This document shows positions 6,322-29,353 of a stretch of 64,000 nucleotides of DNA, piece by piece (the first letter of the stretch is position 1; each line of letters begins with the position of its first letter). The DNA is from Candidatus Adlerbacteria bacterium (GTDB lineage: Bacteria > Patescibacteriota > Minisyncoccia > Phycocordibacterales > SBAW01): assembly GCA_903878285.1 (NCBI GenBank), contig CAIRHB010000002.1, positions 808 to 64,807 on the forward strand, given 5' to 3'. Both the position numbers and the translations under genes were made by a program. The notes beneath the pieces were generated by a model. The model was not told the origin of the DNA and searched no databases. It saw only the letters and a program-made list of their open reading frames with translations.

Positions 6322-6849
6322 ACATCTTTTATTGTTTGAACGCTCTTCAAAACCATTGGCGGGCTACTCGGGATTCAACTGAATGGTGCAAGACCCCGTA
6401 AGGATATTCTAGCGCGAAAAGCACCACACCGCTAAGGCTCTCGGGTCGGGGCTCTAGTTTTTGAAATGAGACAAATGAGACACTTTTTCGCGTTTTTTTT
6501 GGAAGTGTCCCAAAACACCAAAATGTTCATATTTTACTTATCCACAGGTTTAGTCTCTTGCAAAAAAACCGCTTTCGTCTATGGTAGGTATAGGGTCATT
6601 GCAAACGTATTGGGCTTCAGCCACCCATTTGTTTATTTTGAACGTAAATGCTTAGAACTTAGGACTGTGTCGTCACCCAGACGATATTGAAGATTAGAGC
6701 AGCGAACCAAAATAATACCGAATCACTCCGCATGGCGGGATGGTTTTGTGTTATTTCGGCTCGCCCCAAAAACGAAAGAAGCACAACCACCCTACACATG
6801 GGTGGTTTGTTGCATAGCGACCCTGCCATTACAAGGTAGGAACTAGAGT

Positions 6850-8181
6850 ATGGAAACACAAAAAAGTTTGAAGATCGAGTATGTAGCAGTGGATGTTCTT
6901 CGTGCGGCAGACTACAACCCGCGCAAGTGGGACAAAGAGGCGGCGCAACACCTCCGTGAGAGTATCACTCGTTTTGGCGTGGTAGACCCACTACTGGTGA
7001 ATAGTGCGCTTGAGCGAAAAAACATTGTCATCGGTGGACACTTCCGTCTATGCGTACTTAAAGAGATGGGCGTGACTGAAGTGCCCGTGGTGTATGTGTC
7101 TGTTCCTGATATAGAACGAGAAAAAGAACTCAACATACGTCTCAATCGAAACGTCGGCGAATTCGACTGGGATTTGCTCGCCACCTTCGACGAGGCATTT
7201 CTGTCAGATGTCGGATTCTCCAGCGAGGAGCTTGACGGCATATTTGCCCCCGATGAGCAGGAGGAAGTATTTGACCTTAAGAAAGAATTGGACAAGCTCA
7301 AAATTGATTCGATCGATATACAAAAGGGAGACATGTATCAGCTTGGACAGCATCGCCTCATGTGCGGCGATAGCACCATCGAGTCGGATATGTTGACACT
7401 TATGGGCGACGAGAGAGCAGACATGTGCTTCACGGATCCGCCGTACATACTCGACTACTTACACGGCAAGACACGCCATGGCGAGGCAACCACTGGATTC
7501 GGCGCAAAGAAGAACCGTCGGTATCTTGAGACAGAATCCCTGCCTAATGATTTCAGTGACCTGTGGATGGCAAATATCGCCAAGGTACAAAAGGCAGACT
7601 TTTCCATCATTATATTCGAGCACCCAAAGAATCTGCGCACCATCTGGAACGCAGTGGAGAAACATTGGAAATACCGCAACACTATTGTCTGGCATGTGCC
7701 CAATCGCGTACAGGGATTCTCCTCAAAGTACAAGTTCTTCAACAAGCACGATATAGCCCTCGTGGGTACTACTCCAGAGTTTGAGCTGCCAAACACTGCA
7801 CCAGAAGATGACGCGCTCTTTCAAACAGAGTACGAGAACGCGCTATTTGCCACGGCAGGCAAACCGCAGTGGGAGGGCTATGAGAAAGGCAAGAAGTATC
7901 AACCGACCGATTTTATCGAGCACGTGGCCGCAGACGAGAAATCATCGGGTCAAGGCATTATCTTTGGCACGAAACCCCTTGAGCTCCTGATACCATACAT
8001 AAAAGTGCTTACCAAACGCGGCAATCTCATTGTTGAACCGTTTGGCGGTAGCGGCTCTACCCTGATTGCCGCGCACAAAATGGATCGGCGGTGCTTCTTG
8101 ATGGAGAAATCTCCTGTGTATGCAGAGGTTATTAAGAATCGCTGGGAGACACTCACTGGGCAAAAAGCACATAAGATATGA
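6850..8181 (+). CDS. ParB-like nuclease domain fused to DNA N6/N4 methyltransferase (phage-type ParB-MTase), copy A
   Basis: The N-terminus has ParB motifs (YNPRK, IVIGGHFRL). The C-terminus has an FTDPPY catalytic motif and an FGGSGST AdoMet-binding motif. Confidence 0.85.
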   Translation: METQKSLKIEYVAVDVLRAADYNPRKWDKEAAQHLRESITRFGVVDPLLVNSALERKNIVIGGHFRLCVLKEMGVTEVPVVYVSVPDIEREKELNIRLNRNVGEFDWDLLATFDEAFLSDVGFSSEELDGIFAPDEQEEVFDLKKELDKLKIDSIDIQKGDMYQLGQHRLMCGDSTIESDMLTLMGDERADMCFTDPPYILDYLHGKTRHGEATTGFGAKKNRRYLETESLPNDFSDLWMANIAKVQKADFSIIIFEHPKNLRTIWNAVEKHWKYRNTIVWHVPNRVQGFSSKYKFFNKHDIALVGTTPEFELPNTAPEDDALFQTEYENALFATAGKPQWEGYEKGKKYQPTDFIEHVAADEKSSGQGIIFGTKPLELLIPYIKVLTKRGNLIVEPFGGSGSTLIAAHKMDRRCFLMEKSPVYAEVIKNRWETLTGQKAHKI

Positions 8182-8182
8182 C

Positions 8183-8563
8183 ATGGCAGCAACACCCAAT
8201 ACACCAACCATACTCGATGAGCAACAACGGGAACAAAAGACTCTGATTATAGAGACGCTCAAAGTAAAACCAGTAGTCCAGACCGCATGCATAAAAGCGG
8301 GCATTGTTCGAGCTACCTACTACCGATGGATGAAAACGGATCGTGCGTTTGCAAAAGATGTTTGTGGTGCAATTAAAGAAGGTAATGACTTGATTAACGA
8401 TATGGCAGAATCAAAATTGTTCGATGGGATTAAGGAGGGCAAGATGAGCGCGATACGGTACCGGCTGGATCACAAGCATCCAAAGTACAAAAAGAAGCTC
8501 GTGCAAAAACGAAAGCGCAAAGACCCGCCGCAGAAAAAGATGGTGATATTGATTAAAGAGTAA
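8183..8563 (+). CDS. Terminase small subunit-like HTH protein, copy A
   Basis: HTH followed by a W/K-rich tail (VRATYYRWMKTDRAF...). It is a paralogue of the gene that directly precedes terminase large in module B. I took the start at the ATG that abuts the MTase stop. Confidence 0.55.
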   Translation: MAATPNTPTILDEQQREQKTLIIETLKVKPVVQTACIKAGIVRATYYRWMKTDRAFAKDVCGAIKEGNDLINDMAESKLFDGIKEGKMSAIRYRLDHKHPKYKKKLVQKRKRKDPPQKKMVILIKE

Positions 8564-8600
8564 AATACTATCCCCAAACGAATATATCTTCGAGCATGAT

Positions 8601-9011
8601 TCAATTGTTTGGAGTGAGTTCTTGAATGAAGAATCGTCCAAATTCTCTATTTAGATTCGTCATCCAGTCAGCGGCTTCTATGTTTTGATCCAATTCCCTA
8701 AACTTACGACTATCATAATCTTTTTGAAAGTGGAAGGCGCCGTTTCTGTACATTTTTAAGGAATGGATGTTTTCTTCTTCTAGAAGCAATGAGTCGATAT
8801 TCGCATCATTTAACTTTAATTCTTGCCATCCCTCTATAACTGTATACAAAAGCGCATACCATAAAGACATGTACATGAATGTCTCAATATCGTACTTTAC
8901 CTCATCAATATTATCCTTATTCGCTAAGAGGTCGAAAAAATGCTTGCGCATCTTATTCGCCCAGAAATAATATCGGTGCAAGGATACAAGTGATTCCCTA
9001 TTCTTCGACAT
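8601..9011 (-). CDS. Hypothetical protein with HEPN-like Rx4H motif
   Basis: 136 aa, predicted helical, with RNGAFH (R-x4-H) in the C-terminal half, which is the hallmark of HEPN RNase domains. Low GC. Confidence 0.4.
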   Translation of the reverse strand: MSKNRESLVSLHRYYFWANKMRKHFFDLLANKDNIDEVKYDIETFMYMSLWYALLYTVIEGWQELKLNDANIDSLLLEEENIHSLKMYRNGAFHFQKDYDSRKFRELDQNIEAADWMTNLNREFGRFFIQELTPNN

Positions 9012-9479
9012 CTAGAGATTGTTCCCTGAAGCGACACCGTACTGGGCTGTTATTAGCTTATGAAACTCGGAGAGAGTGCTGCATTTTGTGCTACTTACAT
9101 AGCACACACCCACACTGTCCCCAGCGTTATACATAGCATAGATGTCTGAAGTGTTTACATCCCAGACAGTTTCTTCATAGTTGTAACCCTCGTAGTTTGC
9201 TTTGTTTGGTACTTGTTGATACACATCTATGTAACATTTCTCTTTTTCAGGATTATAATAGTTTGCATAAAAGGAAATGGCAGATGGTTTTTCTATACTT
9301 TGAGGAAAGAACTTAGCCGCAGCGTCGGCGCATTTTTGTTGCAGGGCAAAATAGTTTACTTGTTCTTGTGTAACAGATGTTGCTACAACTAACTTAGAGA
9401 TTCTATATTGCTGATACAAAACAATACCAACAAGCAGGAAGGTAATTATCCCCAAAAACAGAACAGATTTATTTTTCAT
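9012..9479 (-). CDS. Membrane-anchored hypothetical protein (N-terminal TM helix, Cys-containing extracytoplasmic domain)
   Basis: The start was reset to the MKNKSVLFLGIITFLLVGIVLY signal-anchor. It is immediately upstream of the HEPN-like gene and co-oriented with it. Confidence 0.45.
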   Translation of the reverse strand: MKNKSVLFLGIITFLLVGIVLYQQYRISKLVVATSVTQEQVNYFALQQKCADAAAKFFPQSIEKPSAISFYANYYNPEKEKCYIDVYQQVPNKANYEGYNYEETVWDVNTSDIYAMYNAGDSVGVCYVSSTKCSTLSEFHKLITAQYGVASGNNL

Positions 9480-9858
9480 ACGCACTCTACTAGGATTTAG
9501 TGCGACGGAGTAAGCCTCTGGGCGACCAAAGAACTCCTGGCCATCGCGACCCGACCTTTCGGCCGAGCCCATACCCGTTTCCAGATATGACCTAGTAGAG
9601 TGACTCTGACCAGGAGTCCTTTAATCTCTACTAGGATTTGCAACCATACCTTGGGGATTTTAAGACCCAAGGGTTAGGCCGGCTTTTATTAAGTTGTACA
9701 CAACCATGATAGCGCTTTTAGGGCTATCGTCCAAGTACTTTAACTTACTTCTGGAGAATTGCGAAGAGGTAACCAACAGGTCTTTTTTGATCGCTTAAGT
9801 TACCAACATCTTGGGTGCTCGGGACGCTCTGGACTCCTGAGGCAGTCTGCGTCATTCC

Positions 9859-11193
9859 TTGTGGTGTATGACCAACACAACACAAGTGCCAGCGGGGACA
9901 CTGGCTCGGGCGGCGCAAGTCCCAATACCAGTAAAGTATTGTTTGTATGCTCGCAAGAGCACAGAGTCCGAGGAGCGGCAGGTGCTCTCCATCGACTCGC
10001 AAATCAAGGAGATGCTTCAGCTCGCCGAGCGTGAAGGACTCCAGATTGTCGCTATGAAACGCGAGTCGCACTCGGCGAAGGAGACGGGTCAGCGTCCCAT
10101 ATTCAACGAGATTGTCGAGGAGATAAAGGGCGGCAAATACAACGGCATCCTCACTTGGGCACCCGACCGCATCAGCCGCAATGCAGGCGACCTCGGCAAG
10201 ATAGTAGATCTCATGGACGCGGGTGGATTACAAGAGATACGCACCTACAGCCAAAGCTTCCGCAATAATCCGAACGAGAAGTTTTTACTGATGATACTCG
10301 GGAGCCAAGCAAAGCTCGAGAACGACAATCGCGGTATTAATGTAAAACGTGGTCTGCGCACCAGAGTGGAGATGGGGCTGTGGCCGACGACCCCACCGAC
10401 TGGCTACCTGACACAGAAGAATATGGAGAAAAAATGTCAGGTTATCATCGACCCAGAGCGTAGCCCCATCGTGCGTAAGATGTTCGAGAAAATGGCGTAT
10501 GAACATTGGTCGGGGCGCAAGATACATCACTGGCTCAAGTTCGAGCTGAACTTCAAGACGGTGGGTAACAAAAATCTCGCGCTCAGCAACATCTTCCGAA
10601 CGCTACAGAACCCCTTCTACTACGGAGTATTCGAGTACCCGAAAGCATCTGGAAACTGGTATACCGGCAAGCATGAACCACTGATAACCAAGGAGCTGTT
10701 CGAGCTTGTACAGACACAACTCAAGCGGGACAACATCACCCGACAAAGCCACGAGTTCGCTTTCACCAAACTCATTGTCTGCGGCAAGTGTGGATCATGC
10801 GTGAGTGCCGAGGAAAAGTACAAACCGCGCAAGGATGGGACCACGATACGATACGTCTACTACGGATGTGGCAGATCAAAAGACCATCACTGCAAAGGTA
10901 ACAAATACTTGCGCGAGGAAGATCTGGTCGAGCAACTGCTTGGCGTGCTTGATCAAATCGACCTCAACGTGCTCGGTGTACAGATAAAGTTCAAAGATGA
11001 GCTCAAGCGGCACAACAAATTCCAGCGCACGGTACTGGGACTATCAAACCCATCTGCCGAGCACGAAGATATCGACCTCAAGACCTATGCCAAATACATT
11101 CTCAAGGAGGGTACCATGGAGGAAAAGCGTGAACTGATGGGGTGCTTCAAGACAAAGCTCAAGATCACAGAGGGTGTTGTAACTATCGGCTAG
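9859..11193 (+). CDS. Large serine recombinase (phage-integrase type), copy A
   Basis: N-terminal resolvase catalytic domain (YARKST..SIDSQ), recombinase domain, and a Cys-rich zinc ribbon (CGKCGS...C..C). Length 444 aa. Confidence 0.9.
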   Translation: MWCMTNTTQVPAGTLARAAQVPIPVKYCLYARKSTESEERQVLSIDSQIKEMLQLAEREGLQIVAMKRESHSAKETGQRPIFNEIVEEIKGGKYNGILTWAPDRISRNAGDLGKIVDLMDAGGLQEIRTYSQSFRNNPNEKFLLMILGSQAKLENDNRGINVKRGLRTRVEMGLWPTTPPTGYLTQKNMEKKCQVIIDPERSPIVRKMFEKMAYEHWSGRKIHHWLKFELNFKTVGNKNLALSNIFRTLQNPFYYGVFEYPKASGNWYTGKHEPLITKELFELVQTQLKRDNITRQSHEFAFTKLIVCGKCGSCVSAEEKYKPRKDGTTIRYVYYGCGRSKDHHCKGNKYLREEDLVEQLLGVLDQIDLNVLGVQIKFKDELKRHNKFQRTVLGLSNPSAEHEDIDLKTYAKYILKEGTMEEKRELMGCFKTKLKITEGVVTIG

Positions 11194-11204
11194 GGTTGTG
11201 CGTA

Positions 11205-11897
11205 CTAAACCAATCCTAACTTCTCAAATGGATAATGTTTCTCGTCTGGCGTCGACATTACCTCAATCGTCGATTTACCAGATCTTTTCAGACGAAGCAC
11301 CCGCCGTTTTGGATGCCTCAGACACTCTTGCGCGAGATCAAAAGTTGCAACAAGATCAACGGTCGGATAGATTTGCGCCATTGAGTACATCTCTTTTGCA
11401 GGATCGGATTTGCCAATTATTATTATCGGAGCATGAGTTGCCAGATTTTTCTCAGCGAGCGCTTTCTGCAGTTCTGCATATGGCGGCACCAAAATCGGCC
11501 TATGCACGTGGCATAAAATAGTCGTTTGATCGTCATATGATTTCTTGCGAGCAAGCTTAGTATTCATCAGAAAGTCGATCAGATTGGTTTCAGAAGTATG
11601 TTCGTCGAATGTTACAACTTCGACATCTTGAACCGCAAAATCGTTGTCTCGAATCTTCTTCTCGTAGCAGCCGGTCCGCACATCAGGGCTTCCTTCATCG
11701 TCGCTGACGAGCTGCATCCAGAATTCTCTGTTGAGAGTTTTCATGATGCCCATAAGTGAAATAGCTACAATATAGCATTCAGCCGCTTTTCGGTAGATTT
11801 CGCTGCCGGGTACTATTTTGCGTTGTCGCTCCAACTCTCTGAAGTGATGGATGACGTTTAATGGCGGGAACCAAAGGTTGTCAGCGAGAAATATCAT
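11205..11897 (-). CDS. Hypothetical protein (island cargo)
   Basis: 230-aa low-GC ORF convergent with the recombinase stop. No recognisable motif. Confidence 0.4.
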   Translation of the reverse strand: MIFLADNLWFPPLNVIHHFRELERQRKIVPGSEIYRKAAECYIVAISLMGIMKTLNREFWMQLVSDDEGSPDVRTGCYEKKIRDNDFAVQDVEVVTFDEHTSETNLIDFLMNTKLARKKSYDDQTTILCHVHRPILVPPYAELQKALAEKNLATHAPIIIIGKSDPAKEMYSMAQIYPTVDLVATFDLAQECLRHPKRRVLRLKRSGKSTIEVMSTPDEKHYPFEKLGLV

Positions 11898-12036
11898 ACA
11901 CGCTAATAATAAGCTCTCGGGTCTGTCCGATACAAAAGTCTGCGGGCGGGCCGTCTTGAGCTAGAACCGTGGTCGGTCAAGCCCTGTTTGACGGAATAGC
12001 TACATTTTACACTATTGAAACGACGCATCTCGAGCG

Positions 12037-12252
12037 CTATGCCTTTCGCCACTGATCAGGTTTTCCTTTGTTTGTATGACGAACGCGCTCTACATCCGGG
12101 CGCACGTCCGGAAACATCTTTTGTGCTTTTGCAATTGCCTTCGCTTGCGTAGGCGCAGTCGCAGAAGCTCGTTTTGAATGCTCCTGGCGAACGGCATAAT
12201 CGCCCTCGGGCCGCTTCTCTATGTAGATATCTGGTCCTTTCTTCTTACCCAT
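12037..12252 (-). CDS. DUF2188-like small protein
   Basis: 71 aa. The pattern (YAVRQEHSKRASATAPTQAKAIAKAQ) resembles the DUF2188 / YjzC-like family. Recalled from memory. Confidence 0.5.
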   Translation of the reverse strand: MGKKKGPDIYIEKRPEGDYAVRQEHSKRASATAPTQAKAIAKAQKMFPDVRPDVERVRHTNKGKPDQWRKA

Positions 12253-12320
12253 ACCCTAAGTGTATCAAATAGTGACAAAAGTGACACGGGAATGAGAATG
12301 GGTTGTGTCACTTTGTCGAT

Positions 12321-13319
12321 TCAACTTAAAAATTCCTCTGGAACCGGATTTGTCATAAAGAATGTGTACGGCGCCCATTTCGCACGGGCAGGCTTGATCT
12401 CTTGGAACTGTTTATTACCAACCCGTTGGTATGAACTAAGAATCTTTTTCGACTTAAGATTCCCATATATATAATTATTTGAGAATCCCATGGTGTTGGA
12501 ATTGATGTAATCGATTTTCTTCTCCGATGTGATCTCAAATTTTGATTTCGAGAGCGGGAGGTCCCGCAACAATAGACCTATTCTGGGGCTGAGAGGAAGA
12601 AATATTGTGCCGTTTCCTAATCCGGCGTTATATATTGGAGGAATATAGGTCGGACGGTAAATCGATATCGGATTATCTGACGTAACGAACACTTTCCAAG
12701 TCGGGTTGATTACGAGGTGCCAGTGCTTACTCCTGTAATACCCGTCTGCAAGCTCCATCGAGAGCTCAATACCCTGAGCCAGAAAGAATGCTCGCGCCTC
12801 TTTAAATTCGACAGAATATTCTTTATTTAGGACGAATTGTCGATGCTCTTCCAACTCTTTTGCGTTCAAGATTATGCCAGCTTCTTCGCTTTGTTTCTTA
12901 AAAACACTTTTATCCATGGCATTCATGGCCATGAATTCTTTCATACCCTCGGCGCGAATAGCTTCCATTGCTTTCACAAAGCCCGGCGTTCTAACTGCAA
13001 GCAATGCAATGAACACGGCGATCATCTGCTTTTGATCATCGTCGCAATTTATTTCCTCGGTACGAATAATATCTTTAATCGCTGCGCCGACCTTTCCCTC
13101 AATCATGGTGTGAAATTCATCAATATCTCTACTCGTCGTTGAATCCTTTTTGTTCGTGAAAGTATAAAAATCTTTCTCGGCAGCAATATCTTTAATGGCT
13201 GCTGGCACAATACTTTCTTGTGAATACTGAAAGATGTGGGGAGTGTAAGGGTTTTTATCAGACGAGAATGCATCCAAGTAGAATTGTGGTACGTAGTGGT
13301 CCTTTGGTTTTCCTGCCAT
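12321..13319 (-). CDS. DUF4238-like protein
   Basis: The N-terminal HYVPQFYLDAF matches, as I recall it, the signature start of the DUF4238 family. 332 aa, low GC. Confidence 0.55.
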   Translation of the reverse strand: MAGKPKDHYVPQFYLDAFSSDKNPYTPHIFQYSQESIVPAAIKDIAAEKDFYTFTNKKDSTTSRDIDEFHTMIEGKVGAAIKDIIRTEEINCDDDQKQMIAVFIALLAVRTPGFVKAMEAIRAEGMKEFMAMNAMDKSVFKKQSEEAGIILNAKELEEHRQFVLNKEYSVEFKEARAFFLAQGIELSMELADGYYRSKHWHLVINPTWKVFVTSDNPISIYRPTYIPPIYNAGLGNGTIFLPLSPRIGLLLRDLPLSKSKFEITSEKKIDYINSNTMGFSNNYIYGNLKSKKILSSYQRVGNKQFQEIKPARAKWAPYTFFMTNPVPEEFLS

Positions 13320-13454
13320 AGCGCTTTTTATAATACCCCTATGTGCAAGAATGGCGAGTTGACTTAAGAACGTAGGTTAGATTCTGAGACTCGCCGACCG
13401 CCCCTGTACTGCCTTTTGACGCTATTTATTAAATAGCCCAGCGATCGGCAAGTC

Positions 13455-13640
13455 TCAAAACCCATTAATCGCCTCAACTCTCTGTCTATTTAGATACTTA
13501 ATAATGTCGTTTTTATCGAAACGGACACTACCCCCAACCTTAATGAATGGGAGCTGTCGCCCTTGCTGCAGGCGTCGCACTGATGTCGGAGATACCTTTA
13601 AAAACTCAGCGACCTCGTTTATGGTCAATAGTTCTAGCAT
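13455..13640 (-). CDS. Excisionase/AlpA-family helix-turn-helix DNA-binding protein
   Basis: 61 aa with a TINEVAEFLKVSPTSVRRL...GGSVRF pattern typical of the excisionase-family DNA-binding domain. Confidence 0.7.
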   Translation of the reverse strand: MLELLTINEVAEFLKVSPTSVRRLQQGRQLPFIKVGGSVRFDKNDIIKYLNRQRVEAINGF

Positions 13641-13651
13641 AAAAGATAGGG

Positions 13652-14260
13652 TTATTTAGCGTACACGCACAGCCCATCAATAATGGGCTTTATTACGGCG
13701 TAAATCTGCCACACAAAAAGACTAACGAGCAATCCATATGTCACGATGACAAGCCATGAATGCTTATTGCCGTTAATCTCCTTGAAAACGCCGACCATCC
13801 CTTTTTGTCTCCATTCTTCTTTTGCACGCTTATCACCGAACAGCTCTCGAAAAAGCGAATAGCCGAATTGCGAAACAACATAAATCAGCCCGAATCCAAC
13901 TAATGTCATAAGCGAAGCGTCGGCGGTTTGATGCTCTTTGGGGAGCGAGCAGTAAGCTTGGCCAATGAAAATTATGAGGCTCAAACCAACGCTTGCTGCC
14001 AGAAGAGAGCGAAACACGACGTACCCTGCAACGAACCACAAGATGCTAAAGAATACACCATAGACGATAATGAGTACGACCGGACCAACGGTTGCAAAAT
14101 ACGAAGAGTGAATGAGGAACCATGAAGTCAGTGACACACCACCTAAGAAAATAAGAAACGACTTCAGATCCTTCCTTTGTACCCCAAGTTTATCGAGCAA
14201 TTTGTGAAAGGTGTTCATAAATGAAATTGAAAGAGTAAGCTTGAGATTTTTATTTTCCAA
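13652..14260 (-). CDS. Hypothetical 4-TM membrane protein
   Basis: 202 aa with four hydrophobic helices. It is tightly packed, overlapping the upstream gene by 11 nt. Confidence 0.5.
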   Translation of the reverse strand: MENKNLKLTLSISFMNTFHKLLDKLGVQRKDLKSFLIFLGGVSLTSWFLIHSSYFATVGPVVLIIVYGVFFSILWFVAGYVVFRSLLAASVGLSLIIFIGQAYCSLPKEHQTADASLMTLVGFGLIYVVSQFGYSLFRELFGDKRAKEEWRQKGMVGVFKEINGNKHSWLVIVTYGLLVSLFVWQIYAVIKPIIDGLCVYAK

Positions 14261-15428
14261 TTTTAATTTGCGGCAGCAATTCCGCAGTAAGATCTGCCGC
14301 CTCTTCTATCGATATTTTGTCCCCGAGCGTAACAATCTCCACGCTAATGCGGAAAACGATTTTTGCGGTCCCGAGCGCGGCGAGTATTTTGTCCTTGTTT
14401 GTCATATACTCTGCATTTTGCTCATTCACACCCTTTTCGCGCCCCTTGATATTAGTGGCGAAGCCAAACTTACCGGGCAAAAACTCTTCCGCGTTTATAT
14501 ACCGTCCATCGGGGGCATTGATGCCGTCATGAAAGATATGCGATTGATAGCCCTCGGGCAGCTCAAGCGATAGCCGTATGTCGCGTACCAGTATTTTTCT
14601 GCTTGATAGATTTTTGATAATGACCGGGATCATGAGGGTAAAACTTTCGGCCAGTCCTTCACGCGTCGTCACGATTTTACTAAAGCCTACTTTCTCAATC
14701 TCAATCTTTGGTAGGTCTGAACGCACTTCCATAGCGCCACGGGTGGAAACGATTTTCTTCCCACCAGGCAGTGTTACTGTGGTTTCAATATGCGGTACGA
14801 TATCCGTTGGCTCCGATCTCCCATCTTCAAGTCTTAGGGAGCCATTTTCTTTATCAACGATGACATGAGCTTTATCACCGCTGCCGTCGCGCTTGCCGAT
14901 GAGTAGGTGTTCATCGTGTCCTTGCGAGCGGGACTCGATAAAAATATTTTCATTTTTGTACCTGCTTTTTACCGTCTTGCCGCGCGCCGGTGTTTCCGCT
15001 TGTGAGCGCATAAATGACTCAACGCGATCCCTGTGGCGCAATTCTAGTTCTTGCGACGCGCGGTTGTATAAGCTACCGGGCACGTTTGAATTATCATTTC
15101 GACGCACAATTTCTCGCAGCTCCTCGTCGGTTCTTTTTGTAAGATCGCTGTAATCTTGAACTTCAAACTGGGCAAAATACTTTGCCACTCGATCTGGGGT
15201 CGAAGAAAAACCTTCGTGATAAATATCCTGCCCCTCGTTTTCGATTAAAAGGAAACCTTCCGCTTTCAGATGATGCAAAAAACCCTTTATGTGTTCTATC
15301 TCCTCATTTTGGAGGTTGGGTCGTATAGGCGTAACCAAAAGTTCAGCGATGCGGTGAACCTTCATAAAGCCGCTTCGTGCTCTAAAAAACTCCATTATTT
15401 GCTTCTTATTCGGGTACACCAGTTCCAT
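14250..15428 (-). CDS. Hypothetical protein, 392 aa (possible N-terminal winged-helix)
   Basis: Long low-GC ORF. The N-terminal 70 aa look wHTH-like. The remainder is unassigned. Confidence 0.5.
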   Translation of the reverse strand: MELVYPNKKQIMEFFRARSGFMKVHRIAELLVTPIRPNLQNEEIEHIKGFLHHLKAEGFLLIENEGQDIYHEGFSSTPDRVAKYFAQFEVQDYSDLTKRTDEELREIVRRNDNSNVPGSLYNRASQELELRHRDRVESFMRSQAETPARGKTVKSRYKNENIFIESRSQGHDEHLLIGKRDGSGDKAHVIVDKENGSLRLEDGRSEPTDIVPHIETTVTLPGGKKIVSTRGAMEVRSDLPKIEIEKVGFSKIVTTREGLAESFTLMIPVIIKNLSSRKILVRDIRLSLELPEGYQSHIFHDGINAPDGRYINAEEFLPGKFGFATNIKGREKGVNEQNAEYMTNKDKILAALGTAKIVFRISVEIVTLGDKISIEEAADLTAELLPQIKIGK

Positions 15429-15455
15429 ACCCGCAATCCTAGCAAAAAAGCAGCT

Positions 15456-16379
15456 TTATTTCCTCTTTCGCTTTTTACTGTCTCGTAACCTCTTTATATG
15501 CTCCTGACGCGTGCGTCTTTCCTCCCACTTCTTCTTTTTCTCCTCTTCTCGCGCTTTCATCTCCTCGGGTGGCACCACGCGCATGTAGTCCATGATCTTA
15601 TAGCCCTTGAGGACTTTGAACGGATCTCGGTGCTGATACCACTTTCCTCCGCCCTTGGTCTCCAACAACTTTTTTGGAGGCAGGAATCCTTTGTTGTCCT
15701 CGACCAAGAATAGTTCGGTGTGCACACCTTTCCCATAGTGGCTCACGGTTCGCGCCTTGAGTATGCCCATACGCATCCATTTGCCGACCGTCGGCCCTTT
15801 AAGATTGAAATTAGAGTCGAGGTCATACCTGCTGTACCAAATGTTTTTATCCTTCGCTAGTATGGCGGGAATCTCGCCCTCATCAATCGCTTTCTGACAT
15901 ACAAGACACTTGACACCGTATTTGTCGTACCAATTGTCGCCGCTCTGCGTATGCTGGCCGCATATCGCGCACGTATAACTGCCATCAAGATGAAAACCTT
16001 TGGGATTTGCCTTGAGTTTCTCGTCCCGCGCCTTATCTTTCTCTTTGATTTCCTCCATGAGCTTTCCCATTCGTTCCATACCGCTCTTCATCTCATAGTA
16101 CTTTTGACCCTCTTCTTCGGTAAGGCAGAAGCGGTCGCGGTCCGCAGCAAAGTTTTGATCAATACCCTCATCTTTCTTATGCGTCCATTCATACTCCTCG
16201 GTGTTCGCATAGCCGCACTTAACGCACGTCGTAGTCGTAACCGATCGCTTGTCGTCGTCCTCTATCTTCTTCTCAACCGGGCTGCGGCAATTCGGGCATA
16301 GCTCTGGCTTTGGCCGCCACTCTTCGCCGTTCGAGAAGAATGCGCGGCGCGGCATACAGTTGTTCGTGCAGTCGTACAT
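15456..16379 (-). CDS. Hypothetical zinc-ribbon protein (four CxxC pairs, lysine-rich C-terminus)
   Basis: CPNCR, CVKCG, CAICG and CLVCQ motifs. A KKKKWEERR...KKRKRK tail. Confidence 0.5.
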   Translation of the reverse strand: MYDCTNNCMPRRAFFSNGEEWRPKPELCPNCRSPVEKKIEDDDKRSVTTTTCVKCGYANTEEYEWTHKKDEGIDQNFAADRDRFCLTEEEGQKYYEMKSGMERMGKLMEEIKEKDKARDEKLKANPKGFHLDGSYTCAICGQHTQSGDNWYDKYGVKCLVCQKAIDEGEIPAILAKDKNIWYSRYDLDSNFNLKGPTVGKWMRMGILKARTVSHYGKGVHTELFLVEDNKGFLPPKKLLETKGGGKWYQHRDPFKVLKGYKIMDYMRVVPPEEMKAREEEKKKKWEERRTRQEHIKRLRDSKKRKRK

Positions 16380-16834
16380 AACAAAAGGCGCTCGGGCATA
16401 TCTTTGCCGGATTCATACCAGAGCGTTTTGAATGTCGGCTTTACTAAGTTTCGGCACGCAAGACAGCGGATACCCTCGGGGGCCTGCGCGGATTCGATCA
16501 GGTCGTCGAGTTTCTGGTCCCGATCCATCCACTCGCGGATTGTATTTTCTTTCTTGAGATATCGCTCACCAGTCTCCATTCGCAGATACCATTCTTTAGC
16601 ACCATCGATGGCTCGTTTCGCTTCCTCTTTACTCAAACCTTTTGGCTTTTTGGGCAAATCATCTACTCCTTTCGCTTTAAAAGATTGTTCTGTCCTACGA
16701 CACATCTCCACCGTGCCTCGATCATACAGGTCGGAGTAATAGAGGTGCGGCTTGAGATGCGGCTCGCTCATACCATAAATAATATTCAGAAAATCAGTCT
16801 TCGTAAATATGTCAGAAACGGCTGTATACTTCAT
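16262..16834 (-). CDS. Hypothetical Cys-containing protein; 3' end overlaps the next ORF out of frame (possible frameshift/pseudogene junction)
   Basis: The first ~150 aa look protein-like and include CLACRN. The last ~35 aa are Arg-rich and lie in the 118-nt overlap with the 15456..16379 ORF. Confidence 0.35.
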   Translation of the reverse strand: MKYTAVSDIFTKTDFLNIIYGMSEPHLKPHLYYSDLYDRGTVEMCRRTEQSFKAKGVDDLPKKPKGLSKEEAKRAIDGAKEWYLRMETGERYLKKENTIREWMDRDQKLDDLIESAQAPEGIRCLACRNLVKPTFKTLWYESGKDMPERLLLCTTARTTVCRAAHSSRTAKSGGQSQSYARIAAARLRRR

Positions 16835-16836
16835 GT

Positions 16837-17187
16837 ATGGCAGAGATAGAACGCATATACATAAAAGACCTGACCCTCCATTCGAGGGAGTCTCGCCCGA
16901 CTACCAAATTCTCAAAGGTTGCCGAAAAAGGCCGTATGTATCGGCCTATCGGCATTAGCCAGACCAAGGAAGTCGCCCCGACAGGTTTTTTACACCTCTT
17001 CGATTTCGAATTACCACAAGACCTAAAAGAGAGGGTTGATCGGGGTGAAGTCGAAATCATGATGCCCGAGGACGGAGTGAATATATACCTTGGGGATGAT
17101 GCCCAAGAAAAGCTCACCCAATTGAACGCCCAAGCTCGTCGCGAACTTATCCACCGCAGCCGCGGCAAGGATTGGCACGCGGAGTAG
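16837..17187 (+). CDS. Hypothetical protein
   Basis: 116-aa ORF divergent from the minus-strand operon. Start codons of the two are 2 nt apart. Confidence 0.35.
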   Translation: MAEIERIYIKDLTLHSRESRPTTKFSKVAEKGRMYRPIGISQTKEVAPTGFLHLFDFELPQDLKERVDRGEVEIMMPEDGVNIYLGDDAQEKLTQLNAQARRELIHRSRGKDWHAE

Positions 17188-17349
17188 AACGGCGTACAAT
17201 GAACGCACAACTGAATATTACTGGTGGTGCCTCGCAACTTGTTGCCACGCCCACTTCGTAGAGAAAGCCTTTGAGAATCACCCGTTGATTCCCTGAGACT
17301 TCCCCGCGAAGTGGGCTTTCTCGTTATTTATCAAGTAACGAAGAAAATT

Positions 17350-18633
17350 ATGGACAAGGAAAATATTGCGATTGTGTACGTACCCATTACTAACCTCAAG
17401 CCAGCCACCTACAATCCACGCAAGATCTCCAAGGAGGCAATGGAGCAGCTGAAAGAGAGTATCAAGCGATACTCAATGGTTGATCCCATAATCGCGAATT
17501 CTGCGCCCAAGCGTAAGGACATTGTTATTGGCGGACACATGCGTCTGCGTGCCGCAAAAGCACTCGGGCATAAAATCATTCCTGTGGTGTATGTAGATAT
17601 TCCTAACCTCAAGAAAGAGCAGGAATTGAACCTGCGTCTTAATCGCTCAACGGGAGAATGGGATTTCGAGAAGTTGAAGTTTTTTGACTCTGACTTTCTC
17701 ACCGACATCGGCTTTAACGATTCTGACTTGGCCGACATATGGAAAGAAAATCTCGAAGCTGAAAATGACGATTTCGACACCGATGCCGAACTCGCCAAAA
17801 TCAAGAAGCCAAAAACAAAACTCGGTGACTTGATTGCCCTCGGTGACCACCGCCTCATCTGCGGTGATTCAACCAATCCCGCAGTACTCAAGAAACTGCT
17901 TGGCAAGGATCGCGCCTCGATGATATATAGCGACCCTGTCTACAATATCCAGATTGATTACAACGGCGGTATCGGGGGTAAGCAGAATTACGGTGGCAAT
18001 GTAAACGATCACCGCACCTACGACGAGTACAAGGAATTCCTCAAGAAAAGCCTCGTAGCCGCTCTTGCAGTATCAAAGCCCGATACGCACGTTTTCTATT
18101 GGAGCGATGAGACATACATCGGCCTTATACAAGAGCTGTACCGCGACCTCGGCATTCAGAATAAGCGCGTATGTCTGTGGCTAAAAAATTCGCAAAACCC
18201 TGTACCATCCGTCGCGTTCAACAAATGCTACGAGCCATGTACATATGGCGTACGCGGAAAGCCATATATCTCTAAACACATTCTCAATCTCAATGAGGTG
18301 CTGAACAAGGAACTCACAACTGGCAATAATCTCATTCAAGAAACCTTGTATCATCTCGACCTGTGGATGGTTAAACGACTCTCGGGCAAGGACTACGAAC
18401 ACGCAACATCGAAGCCACCAAAGCTCCATGAAAAAGCGATACGCCGTTGCACCAAACCTAACGATATTATCCTCGACAGCTTTTCTGGCAGTGCTTCAAC
18501 AATGATTGCTGCCGATCAACTCAAACGCCGCGCCTACTTGGTCGAACTGGAACCGCGCTTCTGCGACCTGGCTATTAAGCGATACGAGAAGCTCACGGGA
18601 AAGAAAGCTCGCGTAATCTCCAACGGCTTATGA
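17350..18633 (+). CDS. ParB-like nuclease domain fused to DNA methyltransferase, copy B
   Basis: About 45% identity to copy A by eye (YNPRK, IVIGGHMRL; SDPVY variant of DPPY; FSGSAST). An alternative upstream start lies at 17311. Confidence 0.85.
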   Translation: MDKENIAIVYVPITNLKPATYNPRKISKEAMEQLKESIKRYSMVDPIIANSAPKRKDIVIGGHMRLRAAKALGHKIIPVVYVDIPNLKKEQELNLRLNRSTGEWDFEKLKFFDSDFLTDIGFNDSDLADIWKENLEAENDDFDTDAELAKIKKPKTKLGDLIALGDHRLICGDSTNPAVLKKLLGKDRASMIYSDPVYNIQIDYNGGIGGKQNYGGNVNDHRTYDEYKEFLKKSLVAALAVSKPDTHVFYWSDETYIGLIQELYRDLGIQNKRVCLWLKNSQNPVPSVAFNKCYEPCTYGVRGKPYISKHILNLNEVLNKELTTGNNLIQETLYHLDLWMVKRLSGKDYEHATSKPPKLHEKAIRRCTKPNDIILDSFSGSASTMIAADQLKRRAYLVELEPRFCDLAIKRYEKLTGKKARVISNGL

Positions 18634-19040
18634 AGAAAAATAAAGTAAAAGATGCGTTCCTTATGGAACTGCGAAAAATTCCGATTGTCCAAGTTGCCTG
18701 TGAAAAGGTCGGCGTGTCCCGCAATAGTGTCTACCGTTGGCGCACGGAGGATGAGGAATTTCGTAAAGAAATGGAAACGGCGCTCACGGAGGGCGAAGCG
18801 TTAGTAAATGATATGAGCGAAAGCCAATTACTCAGTCTTATTCGTGAAAAAAATTGGTCGGCAATTAGTTTCTGGCTACGACATCGCAACCCAAAGTTTA
18901 AGGAACGCGTAGAGATTACCGCGAAAATCGAGAAATCAAACGAGCCACTCACTCCCCAACAAGAGGCCGATATCAAGTTGGCGATGCAACTTGGACTACC
19001 GCAACAAACATATGGAGAAACTAAAAGCACTGACCAGTGA
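18630..19040 (+). CDS. Terminase small subunit-like HTH protein, copy B
   Basis: HTH (VGVSRNSVYRWRTEDEEF). It overlaps the start of the terminase large gene. Confidence 0.6.
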   Translation: MKKNKVKDAFLMELRKIPIVQVACEKVGVSRNSVYRWRTEDEEFRKEMETALTEGEALVNDMSESQLLSLIREKNWSAISFWLRHRNPKFKERVEITAKIEKSNEPLTPQQEADIKLAMQLGLPQQTYGETKSTDQ

Positions 19041-20475
19041 TGAAGAGCGAATCATCGAGCAGATGATTCGTGACAGGAACTTCCGCATAGCAATGGTGAC
19101 CAAAAGCCATTTCTGGTTCTTTCACTATTACTTTGGCAAGGACTATGTGAAATACCGCACCGCCGACTTCCATAAGGAAATATTCCAACTCACTGAAAAT
19201 CCCGATCTACAGAACATCGTCATTACCGCTTTCCGAGGTAGTGGCAAAAGTACGATAGTAACCCTCTCGTATGTAATTTGGTCGATCCTCGGCGAACAGC
19301 AGAAAAAGTACCCCATTATCCTCGGGCAGACCCAACTCAAGGCACAGGCGCACCTACAGGCTATCAAGCGTGAACTGGAGCATAACGAGGCTCTGAGAGC
19401 CGACCTAGGGCCGTTTCGCGAGGAGAATAACCAGTGGGGTGCGCTTTCCCTCATCCTCCCTCAATACGGAGCCAAGATATCTACGGGGTCGGTGGAGCAG
19501 AGCATACGAGGTATGCGTCACTATCAGCACCGCCCCGACCTCATCATCTGTGACGACATCGAGGATCCCGATTCGGTGCGTACTCAAGAGAACCGCGACA
19601 AGCTGTTTGACTGGCTCACGGGCGATGTACTTCCTGCGGGAGACAAAGGTACGCGCATGATGTTCATTGGCACACCACTTCACGAGGACTCACTGCTTCG
19701 TCGCCTCGAAAAGCTGTTTACGAATGGCGATGCAAAAAGTGCGTTTCGGCGATATCCAATTGTTGATGAAAACGGCACACCACTGTGGATTGGTAAATTT
19801 GCAACTCAAAACGATATTGATGCAGAGAAAGCGAAGTGCCTCAACATCGTGGCATGGCAACGCGAGTACATGCTGAAGATAGTGCAGAGCGATACGCAGA
19901 TCGTAAAGCGTGAATGGATAAAAACGTACACAGAAGTACCGAGCGGACCAGATTGTAAATTCAGGTATGCCGCTACAGCCATTGATCCTGCACGCTCACA
20001 AAAGGCAACGGCGGATTGCACAGCAATGGTATCGGGCAAGATATACGGCACGAAAGCTGATAGAAAAATCTATATCATGCCGAATCCCATAAACGCTCGA
20101 CTGACCAGTGAGCAAACTATCCAGAGTGCCGTAAATATTTCACTCGCCCTCGGGAATGGAGCAGCTACAAAGGTATATGTTGAGGAAGTGGGGCTTCAGG
20201 GGTATCTCACTGACTTTCTAAAAGCGCGTGGCATACCCGCTATTCCGTACCCGATTCGTGGGCAAACCAAAGAGGGTCGATTACAGGCGGTTGCCGCGCT
20301 TATCGAACTAGGTACGATACTCTTTCCCGAGAAAGGTGCAGAGCAACTGGTAGAGCAGATCCTAGGATTTGGCACCGAGAAGCATGACGATTTAGTCGAT
20401 GCGTTTACGATTCTCGTTCTACAACTTTTAGAAAGCACAAAACTCTATCCACAAATACAGTGGATCCGCCTCTAA
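18991..20475 (+). CDS. Phage terminase large subunit
   Basis: Walker A (FRGSGKST), Walker B (LIICDD), and a C-terminal RNase-H-like nuclease region (AIDPA...KHDDLVDA). Confidence 0.85.
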   Translation: MDYRNKHMEKLKALTSDEERIIEQMIRDRNFRIAMVTKSHFWFFHYYFGKDYVKYRTADFHKEIFQLTENPDLQNIVITAFRGSGKSTIVTLSYVIWSILGEQQKKYPIILGQTQLKAQAHLQAIKRELEHNEALRADLGPFREENNQWGALSLILPQYGAKISTGSVEQSIRGMRHYQHRPDLIICDDIEDPDSVRTQENRDKLFDWLTGDVLPAGDKGTRMMFIGTPLHEDSLLRRLEKLFTNGDAKSAFRRYPIVDENGTPLWIGKFATQNDIDAEKAKCLNIVAWQREYMLKIVQSDTQIVKREWIKTYTEVPSGPDCKFRYAATAIDPARSQKATADCTAMVSGKIYGTKADRKIYIMPNPINARLTSEQTIQSAVNISLALGNGAATKVYVEEVGLQGYLTDFLKARGIPAIPYPIRGQTKEGRLQAVAALIELGTILFPEKGAEQLVEQILGFGTEKHDDLVDAFTILVLQLLESTKLYPQIQWIRL

Positions 20476-20554
20476 GAGGCTAAATACCATGCGACGAAAC
20501 GGCTAGTCTGCATAGCTATGCAGGGCTGGTGGTTCTGGCATCAATGGTGGTCGC

Positions 20555-24181: not shown

Positions 24182-24187
24182 AAATAT

Positions 24188-25879: not shown

Positions 25880-25880
25880 A

Positions 25881-26126
25881 TTATTCGGTGCTCGTTTGCT
25901 TTAAAAAATTTTCAAATTCACTGCGGTCTATCCGAAACTCCTTACCAATTTTGTGTGCTTTAAGTCGTTTCGCCTTGATGTAGCGGTAAATGGTCATGAC
26001 GTTCAGACTCAACTTCTCGGCTAGATCGTGCGCCGTGTAGAACTCTTTTTCGTCTTTCTCCATACTTTTATGATACTTTACTTTTGTTGACATTACAACA
26101 CTCGAAGGAATACAATGTGGATGCAA
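25881..26126 (-). CDS. Excisionase-family HTH DNA-binding protein (possible R-M controller)
   Basis: The MTIYRYIKAKRLKAHKIGKEFRI motif matches the excisionase-family DNA-binding domain. The true start is probably an internal Met. It abuts the mod start. Confidence 0.6.
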   Translation of the reverse strand: MHPHCIPSSVVMSTKVKYHKSMEKDEKEFYTAHDLAEKLSLNVMTIYRYIKAKRLKAHKIGKEFRIDRSEFENFLKQTSTE

Positions 26127-26127
26127 T

Positions 26128-29265: not shown

Positions 29266-29353
29266 TCAAACCTAAGTTTCTGCGCCTCAGTGTCATCAGT
29301 TTTCTGATGTGAAAAATTCCTTGTAAACACTAGCCTCTTGAGCTAGCTCGACT

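What the first reader, a model, noticed from the sequence alone, without database searches (positions are those of the whole stretch)
6850..20475. Duplicated ParB-nuclease/methyltransferase plus TerS-like modules, with a terminase large subunit only in the second and no structural genes
The ParB-MTase plus TerS arrangement normally marks the packaging-module start of a phage. Here it occurs twice, in diverged form. Only copy B is followed by TerL, and both are followed by a serine recombinase rather than portal or capsid genes.

This could be a family of CPR-associated satellite-like elements that retain only packaging-recognition functions. Alternatively, the solitary ParB-MTases may serve as anti-restriction or self-methylation cargo.
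Basis: inference. Interest (0 to 1): 0.5.

Follow-up and report, generated by a model that had tools for sequence, protein, structure and literature searches.

The report
Capsid-less terminase-carrying integrative elements in CPR bacteria
The window holds two separate mobile elements inserted side by side next to one tRNA-Ser gene, members of a widespread, apparently undescribed family in CPR (Patescibacteria) bacteria that keeps a working phage DNA-packaging enzyme and a serine integrase but no virus-shell genes, and that carries anti-phage defence genes; they are probably parasites of phages.

Summary
There are two ParB-methyltransferase + small-terminase (TerS) modules. Only the second has a large terminase (TerL). 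Each is followed by a large serine recombinase (LSR), and there are no virion genes.

This is not an in-place duplication or a split prophage. It is two independent elements, A (~6437-11923) and B (~11954-29346). Each is bounded by its own 11-nt direct repeat, and they sit in two adjacent attachment sites 3' of tRNA-Ser(GCT).

The gene order ParB-MTase, TerS, TerL, LSR recurs in about 75 public loci, nearly all from Patescibacteria. The element always ends at the 3' end of a tRNA gene, and the cargo is variable and defence-rich.

- **Lineage:** element TerLs form one clade, sister to phage TerLs that are followed by portal, protease and capsid genes. No element TerL is followed by these.
- **Selection:** TerL catalytic residues are conserved, and dN/dS is about 0.03-0.05 for all four core genes.
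- **Copy A:** it lacks TerL without any remnant, as about 15% of relatives do.
- **LOOT RNA:** this orphan Rfam RNA lies beside the LSR gene in copy A and in 45 related loci.

The most likely function is a helper-phage-dependent satellite that packages itself with its own terminase. That step is inferred, not shown.

The parts
6437..6447 (.). Left junction of element A: direct repeat GCTCTCGGGTC
   Evidence: This 11-mer occurs exactly twice in the window, at 6437 and 11913. It matches the CTCGGGTC arm seen at the junctions of related elements.
6468..6483 (+). Left-end motif of element A, GAGACAAATGAGACAC
   Evidence: The same variant sits at the left ends of L029, L058, L073, L144 and L369.
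6850..8181 (+). ParB_N + N6/N4 DNA methyltransferase, copy A
   Evidence: Pfam ParB_N 3e-09 and N6_N4_Mtase 4e-20; phrog_498 1e-80.
8183..8563 (+). Small terminase-like HTH protein, copy A (ORF from 8120; public gene calls start at 8183)
   Evidence: phrog_4044 1.4e-05 and a weak PF13022 hit. 44% identical to copy B. Gene call.
8601..9572 (-). Two small ORFs (136 and 186 aa) in the slot where TerL normally sits
   Evidence: No family hits, no homologues in other loci and no TerL remnant.
9548..9680 (-). LOOT RNA (Rfam RF03000), divergent from LSR_A
   Evidence: 78.8 bits against a gathering score of 46.4, full length. It recurs beside the LSR gene in 45 related loci.
9868..11193 (+). Large serine recombinase A
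   Evidence: Resolvase, Recombinase and Zn_ribbon_recom domains; phrog_95 2e-63.
11205..11897 (-). Cargo ORF of element A (230 aa, unknown function)
   Evidence: No family hits.
11913..11933 (.). Right junction of element A: repeat GCTCTCGGGTC followed by TGT and CCGATAC
   Evidence: The pattern GGTC-N3-CCGATA-AAAA matches the tRNA-side junctions of elements with LSR_A-like recombinases, such as L023 and L036.
11954..12036 (.). Left junction zone of element B: repeat TCTTGAGCTAG (11954-11964) and a second att-like arm, CGACGCATCTCGAGC (12022-12036)
   Evidence: The 11-mer occurs only at 11954 and 29336. The arm consensus CGACGYRTCTCGWGC lies at the left ends of many relatives. Which arm is the true crossover is uncertain, so the boundary is good to about 80 nt.
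12037..13640 (-). Left-arm genes of B: DUF2188 (12037-12252), DUF4238 (12321-13319) and HTH_17 (13455-13640). The conserved motif GTGACAAAAGTGACAC sits at 12272-12287.
   Evidence: Pfam and PADLOC; motif mapping.
13652..17237 (-). Accessory genes of B: a membrane protein (13652-14260), a 392-aa ORF, and a split copy (15456-16379 and 16262-16834) of a conserved ~440-aa multi-zinc-ribbon protein
   Evidence: Homologues recur at the left arm of other elements. There are 422 homologues, all annotated hypothetical and from CPR. The gene is one 450-aa ORF in L151. The structure model has pLDDT 84 and no informative fold match.
17350..18633 (+). ParB_N + N6/N4 DNA methyltransferase, copy B
   Evidence: Pfam ParB_N 4e-11 and N6_N4_Mtase 3e-27; phrog_498 6e-96.
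18630..19040 (+). Small terminase, copy B
   Evidence: phrog_4044 2e-11 and PF13022 4e-06.
19012..20475 (+). Large terminase (TerL)
   Evidence: phrog_38 7e-84 and NCBIfam termin_lrg_T7 4e-21. Walker A, Walker B and nuclease aspartates are conserved in at least 93% of 92 relatives.
20480..20554 (+). Conserved LSR upstream region with the palindrome TGCATAG-CTATGCA, probably a promoter or operator
   Evidence: nhmmer finds it upstream of the LSR gene in 59 places. There is no support for an RNA structure.
20555..21880 (+). Large serine recombinase B
   Evidence: The best NCBIfam match is CcrB, 2e-35, below its cutoff.
21884..29265 (.). Defence cargo of B: Type III restriction enzyme (21884-24181, -), Type III methylase (24188-25879, -), HTH_17 (25881-26126, -) and a KAP/PifA-like NTPase (26128-29265, +)
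   Evidence: Pfam; PADLOC REase_III 7e-93, MTase_III 4e-146 and PifA 8e-28.
29336..29353 (.). Right junction of element B: TCTTGAGCTAG followed by CTCGACT, directly abutting the tRNA
   Evidence: It is a variant of the family palindrome TCGTGC-TA-GCACGA that follows the tRNA CCA end.
29354..29443 (-). tRNA-Ser(GCT), the insertion landmark
   Evidence: ARAGORN and Rfam.

Best explanation
The region holds two independently acquired members of one family of integrative elements of Patescibacteria (CPR).

**Layout of a member.** Each inserts through its own large serine recombinase into a short site just 3' of a tRNA gene. From left to right a member reads:
1. Left junction and a GTGACA/GAGACA repeat motif.
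2. A few reverse-strand accessory genes.
3. ParB-methyltransferase, HTH-type TerS, TerL.
4. Often a LOOT RNA, then the LSR promoter region and the LSR gene.
5. Variable, mostly defence, cargo, then the right junction and the tRNA.

**The window.** Element B (17.4 kb) used the site that abuts tRNA-Ser(GCT). Element A (5.5 kb) has a 58%-identical LSR of a different site class and used a second site about 45 nt further out. That is why the two lie in tandem. A lacks TerL.

**Function (inferred).** These are phage satellites. When a helper phage related to the sister TerL clade infects, the element excises. Its own TerS recognises element DNA, and its own TerL cuts that DNA and pumps it into the helper's procapsids. 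The ParB-methyltransferase marks the DNA against restriction in the next host. The defence cargo pays the host for carrying the element.

**Shown:** gene content, the family, the boundaries, tRNA targeting, absence of virion genes, and purifying selection. **Inferred:** excision, helper dependence and encapsidation.
For: **Family and architecture**
- An IMG/VR scan with LSR_B found 57 loci. 36 have PMT-TerS-TerL-LSR and 8 have PMT-TerS-LSR.
- A GTDB scan gave more than 586 relatives. Of the best 80, 38 have TerL, 9 have PMT/TerS only, 18 have no module and 15 have too little upstream sequence.
- Only four gene families are conserved across loci. Everything else varies.

**Boundaries**
- For all 59 LSR copies that have a tRNA downstream, the tRNA is on the opposite strand, 113 bp to 9.4 kb away: Ser 32, Gln 18, Trp 4, Asp 2, Asn 2, Glu 1.
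- A conserved junction sequence directly follows the tRNA CCA end.
- The matching arm and the GTGACA motif lie at the left end, and 7-11 nt repeats are shared between the two ends. Element sizes run from 2.8 to 19 kb.
- In the window, each 11-mer repeat occurs exactly twice, at the predicted ends.
- Host genes flank the left end in L369.

**No virion genes**
- PHROGs finds none in the window.
- HMMs for the sister phages' portal, capsid and protease hit 27 phage loci and no LSR-linked locus.

**A functional terminase**
- 94 of 99 complete TerL ORFs are full length, and the catalytic residues are conserved.
- Median dN/dS is 0.031 for TerL, 0.039 for TerS, 0.044 for PMT and 0.046 for LSR.

**Phage link**
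- Element TerLs form one clade, sister to TerLs that are followed by portal, protease and capsid genes.
- Those phages also carry ParB/MTase genes upstream of TerL.
- The element TerS is unrelated to the small ORF in the TerS slot of those phages, as expected if it confers a separate packaging specificity.
- In L023 and L032 a different TerL type (phrog_2) occupies the same slot.

**Cargo** is Type I, Type III and Type IIG-like restriction systems, AAA_15/21, PIF1, DUF2779, KAP/PifA and DUF4238.
Against: - No excised circle, attP junction or terminal repeat was found in any contig, and all assemblies of this population show the integrated tandem form.
- No replication gene was recognised, and PICI-type satellites normally have one.
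- No candidate helper prophage is in the window. That the portal-bearing sister phages infect CPR hosts was not shown.
- About 28% of related LSR elements lack the terminase module entirely, and about 15% lack TerL. The module is therefore not needed for the element to persist.
- IMG/VR membership only reflects gene content, not presence in virus particles.
- The site half-arms are less symmetric than in well-studied LSR sites. The shared 7-11 nt core is at the long end of what I recall for LSRs (own knowledge).
Confidence: 0.55

Rival explanations
1. The terminase module is an anti-phage weapon rather than a transfer device. A resident TerS/TerL (with the ParB-methyltransferase) competes for an infecting phage's procapsids or portal, or cuts its concatemers. 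This blocks phage packaging, much as PICI interference proteins do. The island itself moves rarely and by other routes.
For: - The cargo is dominated by defence systems.
- The TerL clade has been kept for a long time without capsid genes and separate from phage TerLs.
- The element TerS differs from the sister phages' small ORF.
- LSR-only relatives persist without the module.
Against: - I know of no precedent for a complete terminase used purely as a defence (own knowledge; literature searches found none).
- Interference and self-packaging are not exclusive. In known satellites they go together.
- The fixed position of the module next to the integrase and attachment site fits a transfer function.
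Confidence: 0.2
2. The capsid is encoded elsewhere. The elements are the packaging half of a split, gene-transfer-agent-like or cryptic-phage system whose head and tail genes lie at other chromosomal loci.
For: - TerL is intact and under selection, so something must supply procapsids.
- Only about 10 kb on each side of each element was examined.
Against: - The elements are mobile and patchy. They sit at different tRNAs in different genomes, often in tandem.
- CPR genomes are very small (own knowledge).
- No portal, capsid or protease homologue appears in any of about 200 element-bearing loci, including flanks.
Confidence: 0.1
3. The ParB-methyltransferase is the selected function, as self-methylation or anti-restriction cargo. 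TerS/TerL are hitch-hiking leftovers of the phage module it came from.
For: - ParB-MTase is kept in TerL-less copies such as element A and in about 15% of relatives.
- Many elements carry a second methyltransferase next to it.
Against: - TerL and TerS show purifying selection as strong as that on the methyltransferase and the integrase.
- TerL catalytic residues are conserved.
- A different TerL type is found in the same slot in L023 and L032.
Confidence: 0.08
4. These are ordinary decaying or split prophages that happened to lose their structural genes twice.
For: - The module is of phage origin.
- A few TerL copies are truncated, 5 of 99.
- Element A has lost TerL.
Against: - The same capsid-less architecture with the same ends recurs in dozens of unrelated genomes.
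- dN/dS is about 0.03-0.05.
- Both ends of both elements lie inside the window with no virion genes between them.
- The element TerL clade is never linked to a portal gene.
Confidence: 0.03

Closest known systems
Phage-inducible chromosomal islands (PICIs, including SaPIs) and the minimalist PICMIs
   Same: Small (about 5-20 kb) site-specifically integrated islands without virion or lysis genes. They carry their own small terminase to redirect packaging, often carry defence or accessory cargo, and are about one third the size of likely helper genomes. The sister-phage contigs here are 35-58 kb.
   Different: These elements use a large serine recombinase rather than a tyrosine integrase. They also encode a complete large terminase and a ParB-methyltransferase. 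No primase/replicase module or Stl/AlpA-type layout was recognised. They are found in CPR bacteria. Helper induction is untested.
Capsid-forming PICIs (cf-PICIs)
   Same: Satellites that bring their own packaging machinery rather than only a specificity factor (own knowledge).
   Different: cf-PICIs also encode capsid, portal, protease and connector proteins. None of these is present here.
Vibrio cholerae PLEs
   Same: A phage-parasitic island integrated by a large serine recombinase (PMC6002521; PMC9618062 notes that PLEs were the only reference satellites with an LSR).
   Different: There is no sequence or gene-order relationship. PLEs have their own replication and capsid-remodelling genes and no TerL (own knowledge).
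SCCmec-type cassettes (Ccr recombinases)
   Same: The best NCBIfam match of the LSR is CcrB, 2e-35, below its cutoff. Both are serine-recombinase cassettes that sit at the 3' end of a conserved RNA-related gene, pile up in tandem, and carry cargo without transfer genes of their own.
   Different: SCC elements target rlmH/orfX, use Ccr pairs, and have no terminase or ParB-methyltransferase module.
Marine virion-encapsidated integrative mobile elements (VEIMEs)
   Same: Environmental satellites known from sequence alone. Some have serine recombinases, small terminases and restriction systems (PMC9618062).
   Different: VEIMEs were recovered from virus particles, so encapsidation is shown. The paper reports no class with a large terminase. 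They have different hosts.

Membership tests
Large-serine-recombinase integrative element / genomic island | Encodes an LSR with Resolvase, Recombinase and zinc-ribbon domains and a catalytic serine | tested here: met
   Both copies have all three Pfam domains. The serine of the ARKS motif is invariant in 12 aligned relatives.
Large-serine-recombinase integrative element / genomic island | Defined junctions at a specific chromosomal target | tested here: met
   All 59 LSR copies with a downstream tRNA have it 3'-end-on. Junction motifs are conserved. The window 11-mers lie at 6437/11913 and 11954/29336.
Large-serine-recombinase integrative element / genomic island | Demonstrated excision and integration (attP and attB forms) | tested here: inconclusive
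   No circular or empty-site contig was found. Raw reads could not be searched.
Phage satellite (PICI-like) | No virion structural or lysis genes inside a bounded element | tested here: met
   with the boundaries.
Phage satellite (PICI-like) | Carries packaging-specificity gene(s) | tested here: met
   TerS is present in both copies and TerL in B. All are under purifying selection.
Phage satellite (PICI-like) | Own replication module (primase/replicase plus origin) | tested here: not met
   No such domain appears in any island ORF in Pfam, PHROGs or NCBIfam. The conserved zinc-ribbon accessory protein has no informative fold match.
Phage satellite (PICI-like) | Induced by, and packaged in the particles of, a helper phage | not testable with these tools
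   This needs virus-particle DNA or culture work. Only a sister phage clade was identified.
Temperate prophage | Portal, capsid, tail and lysis genes | tested here: not met
   None lies between the mapped ends.
Capsid-forming PICI | Own capsid, portal and protease genes | tested here: not met
Terminase large subunit | N-terminal ATPase (Walker A/B) plus C-terminal RNase-H-like nuclease with acidic catalytic residues | tested here: met
   phrog_38 7e-84 and NCBIfam N- and C-terminal models. K86, D188/D189/E191, D332 and D466/D467/D470 are conserved in at least 93% of 92 sequences.
LOOT RNA (Rfam RF03000) | Covariance-model score above the curated gathering score | tested here: met
   78.8 bits against 46.4 in the window, and 76-86 bits in 9 of 9 related loci. 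There are compensatory changes in 13 of 20 predicted pairs.

The most novel reading that the evidence does not exclude
These are a new class of phage satellite, 'terminase-only' satellites. They are widespread in the Candidate Phyla Radiation and bring a complete TerS+TerL holoenzyme but no capsid. They integrate by a serine recombinase at tRNA 3' ends, often in tandem arrays, and are a main vehicle for restriction and other defence systems in these tiny genomes. The orphan LOOT RNA would be a regulatory part of the same element, tied to the recombinase gene.
Probability: 0.4. Interest if true: 0.8.

Novelty: new variant of a known kind. Interest (0 to 1): 0.62.

Why it matters
- **A handle on CPR gene flow.** CPR bacteria make up a large share of bacterial diversity, are mostly uncultured, and their phage biology and routes of gene exchange are barely known. 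A defined, abundant element family gives a concrete entry point into how these organisms trade defence systems. It has mapped ends, a known target (tRNA 3' ends) and a selected packaging enzyme.
- **A missing satellite type.** If the elements are satellites, they fill the gap between satellites that carry only a small terminase and those that build whole capsids.
- **New recombinase pairs.** The LSR/att pairs, in at least two site classes, are candidate new recombinase tools.
- **Context for LOOT.** The link to LOOT RNA gives a first genomic context for an RNA of unknown function.

Tried and rejected
- **DNA repeats in the island:** a generic repeat search found no long repeats or tRNA duplication. 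The short junction repeats emerged only from family comparison.
- **Circular or excised forms:** no terminal repeats in any fetched contig. The left-junction pattern is absent from IMG/VR. The metagenome scan gave 120 or more integrated or tandem copies but no circle.
- **Empty-site or alternative-junction variants of this population:** none. All contigs carrying the flanking genes or DUF4238 are collinear with the window.
- **TerL pseudogene in copy A:** none.
- **RNA structure in the conserved LSR upstream region:** no covariation. It is a DNA-level motif.
- **LOOT as a guide for the attachment site:** the 3' hairpin of copy A shares TCGGGTC with A's core, but LOOT hairpins of other elements do not track their cores. 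I treat the match as chance.
- **Literature:** six full-text searches found no description of this element family. The LOOT supplement was not available.
- **AFDB fold library:** unavailable.

Full report
**1. What is in the window**

The island between about 5.74 and 29.35 kb has 39-51% GC. The host genes on both sides have 57-61%. The island ends at tRNA-Ser(GCT), 29354-29443 on the minus strand.

- Two ParB_N + N6/N4 methyltransferase fusions, at 6850-8181 and 17350-18633.
- Two small HTH proteins that match small-terminase families, at 8183-8563 and 18630-19040.
- One large terminase, at 19012-20475 (phrog_38, 7e-84).
- Two large serine recombinases, at 9868-11193 and 20555-21880.

The paired proteins are 32%, 44% and 58% identical. 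These are diverged homologues, not a recent duplication.

The rest of the island is cargo.
- A Type III restriction-modification pair.
- A KAP/PifA-like NTPase.
- DUF4238 and DUF2188 proteins.
- Two HTH_17 proteins.
- Several unknown ORFs.

Nothing matches a virion protein.

**2. The gene order is a conserved architecture**

I scanned IMG/VR with LSR_B and found 57 loci. Mapping the window's proteins onto them showed ParB-MTase, (a second MTase), TerS, TerL, (0-9 kb), LSR again and again. 36 loci have TerL and 8 have ParB-MTase/TerS only.

All-against-all clustering of ORFs found only these four families to be conserved. Everything else varies.

A scan of one genome per GTDB species found more than 586 LSR relatives. 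The best 80 are almost all Patescibacteria/CPR MAGs; a few carry other, unverified bin labels. Of those 80:

| Class | Loci |
|---|---|
| Full module with TerL | 38 |
| ParB-MTase/TerS, no TerL (like copy A) | 9 |
| No module | 18 |
| Too little upstream sequence | 15 |

The window's host genes are 50-74% identical to, and syntenic with, flanks of these MAGs, notably L126. The host is therefore a Patescibacterium.

**3. Boundaries**

*Right end.* For all 59 LSR copies that have a tRNA downstream, the tRNA lies on the opposite strand, 113 bp to 9.4 kb away. It is mostly tRNA-Ser or tRNA-Gln. Directly after the tRNA's CCA end comes a conserved sequence. For LSR_B-like recombinases it is the palindrome TCGTGC-TA-GCACGA followed by GACGCGTCG. 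For more distant LSRs, including LSR_A-like ones, it is a motif of the form ..TATCGG..GACCCGAG.

*Left end.* The arm CGACGYRTCTCGWGC recurs here, a few bases before the repeat AAAAAGTGACAAAAGTGACAC, or GAGACAAATGAGACAC in the second class. The two ends share 7-11 nt. The elements so delimited measure 2.8-19 kb. The left-junction pattern occurs at least 120 times in JGI metagenomes. In L369 the left end is flanked by housekeeping genes.

*In the window.* GCTCTCGGGTC occurs only at 6437 and 11913. TCTTGAGCTAG occurs only at 11954 and 29336. This delimits element A (5.5 kb) and element B (17.4 kb).

Removing both elements reconstructs one stretch downstream of tRNA-Ser that holds both site classes about 45 nt apart. 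The tandem arrangement therefore reflects two independent insertions by recombinases of different specificity.

A second att-like arm at 12022-12036 leaves B's left end uncertain by about 80 nt. Other contigs also carry two LSR elements in tandem.

**4. Not decay**

- 94 of 99 complete TerL ORFs are full length.
- Walker A, Walker B and the nuclease acidic residues are conserved in at least 93% of 92 sequences.
- Pairwise dN/dS medians are 0.031 (TerL), 0.039 (TerS), 0.044 (ParB-MTase) and 0.046 (LSR).

In a neighbour-joining tree the element TerLs form one diverse clade. It is sister to TerLs that are followed by portal, protease and major capsid genes.

A second IMG/VR scan with a TerL alignment confirmed the split. 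TerLs at least 42% identical to the window's have ParB-MTase and the HTH-type TerS upstream and never a portal downstream. TerLs 30-40% identical are followed by portal, protease and capsid genes.

HMMs of those portal, capsid and protease families hit 27 phage loci and no LSR-linked locus. The element TerS has no detectable relation to the small ORF in the TerS slot of the sister phages. In L023 and L032 a different TerL type (phrog_2) fills the same slot.

Among cultured phages the nearest TerLs are only about 27% identical and come from Mu-like phages.

**5. Copy A**

Between TerS_A and LSR_A there is no TerL remnant. Instead there are two orphan reverse-strand ORFs and a LOOT RNA. TerL-less members are a recurrent minority. 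Elements with ParB-MTases similar to A's usually do have TerL. A is therefore best read as a member that lost TerL.

**6. Mechanism**

*Shown.* This is a bounded, tRNA-targeting, LSR-bearing element family with a selected terminase and no capsid genes, carrying defence cargo: Type I, Type III and IIG-like restriction systems, AAA_15/21, PIF1, DUF2779 and KAP/PifA.

*Inferred.* An intact ATPase-nuclease terminase is useful only with procapsids. Related phages with the same ParB-MTase/TerL module exist. The most economical reading is therefore a satellite that packages itself into a helper's capsids with its own holoenzyme.

I put this at about 0.55. The weak points are:
- No excised form was seen.
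- No replication gene was recognised.
- No helper was identified.
- LSR-only relatives share the same ends.

The main rival is a packaging-interference (defence) role for the terminase. A split gene-transfer-agent-like system and a methyltransferase-centred reading are less likely. A decayed prophage is effectively excluded.

**7. Comparison and novelty**

The elements work most like PICI-type satellites but fail two of that family's features. They have an LSR instead of a tyrosine integrase, and no replication module. They also add a TerL that PICIs lack.

They lack the capsid genes of cf-PICIs. They share only the recombinase class with PLEs. In integration style they resemble SCC cassettes; the best NCBIfam match of the LSR is CcrB, below its cutoff.

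Full-text searches found no description of the family. The VEIME paper describes no satellite class with a large terminase. I rate it a new variant of a known kind.

**8. Side finding: LOOT RNA**

Rfam places a full-length LOOT RNA at 9548-9680 on the minus strand of element A. Rfam confirmed LOOT in 9 of 9 related loci tested.

A model built from 16 copies found 46 copies in about 150 LSR-bearing sources and none in about 35 portal-bearing phage loci. Most lie 150-330 nt upstream of the LSR gene and point away from it. Some lie just downstream of the LSR gene, and some lie upstream of the ParB-MTase.

LOOT also occurs in LSR elements that lack the terminase module, so it tracks the recombinase. 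Its function is unknown.

Noticed in passing
window 9548-9680 (-); also L108, L148, L090, L114, L024, L105, L035, L076, L034 and about 35 more loci: The orphan Rfam motif LOOT RNA (RF03000) is a recurrent part of this element family. It usually lies 150-330 nt upstream of the LSR gene and points away from it. It is absent from the related portal-bearing phages. As far as I recall the name refers to Lentisphaerae, OD1, OP11 and TM7; no function is known.
   Followed up: yes
window 20480-20554; 59 places in related loci: A ~75-nt conserved DNA stretch lies directly upstream of the LSR start codon. It contains ACCATGCGACG, the palindrome TGCATAG-CTATGCA and TCTGTCATTAAT. No RNA covariation was found, so it is probably the LSR promoter or operator. 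In minimal elements it adjoins the left-end GTGACA motif.
   Followed up: partly
window 15456-16834 (-): The conserved ~440-aa multi-zinc-ribbon accessory protein of the family has 422 homologues, 55-79% identical and all annotated hypothetical. In the window it is split into two overlapping ORFs (190 and 307 aa), but it is a single 450-aa ORF in L151. The cause is a frameshift, a pseudogene or a sequencing error. The structure model is confident, with no informative fold match.
   Followed up: partly
L045, L047, L048, L051, L053, L075/L320: Some elements carry two diverged TerL genes in tandem between TerS and the LSR. Both are full length, and they fall in two separate sub-clades of the element TerL tree.
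   Followed up: no
L089, L093, L098, L106, L122, L127: Minimal relatives of 2.8-5.8 kb have the same junctions and left-end motif, but only the LSR and a little cargo, with no terminase module.
   Followed up: partly
window 5743-6436, especially about 6357-6385: Left of element A lies a low-GC gene (39.6% GC, with a weak DUF6886 match) and a sequence that looks like the 3' end of a tRNA (GGCGGGCTACTCGGGATTCAAC) in the same orientation as tRNA-Ser. Similar fragments lie left of the junction in L144 and L369. This may be the remnant of an older insertion.
   Followed up: partly
window about 13406-13497: Contigs from several assemblies covering this region (four seen) start or end within this 90-nt stretch at the 3' end of the HTH_17 gene. 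It is not an element boundary. It may mark strain-level variation in B's left arm.
   Followed up: no
L023:8580-9905, L032:1780-3060: A different terminase large-subunit type (phrog_2) occupies the TerL slot between the same kind of TerS and LSR. This suggests module swapping.
   Followed up: no
window 53909-54294 (+) and 33172-35982 (-): The host flank carries a tmRNA (tag AKSSVTSPYFSANEFAFA), and a DUF87/T4SS-like ATPase next to a pilin-like gene. Neither was examined further.
   Followed up: no
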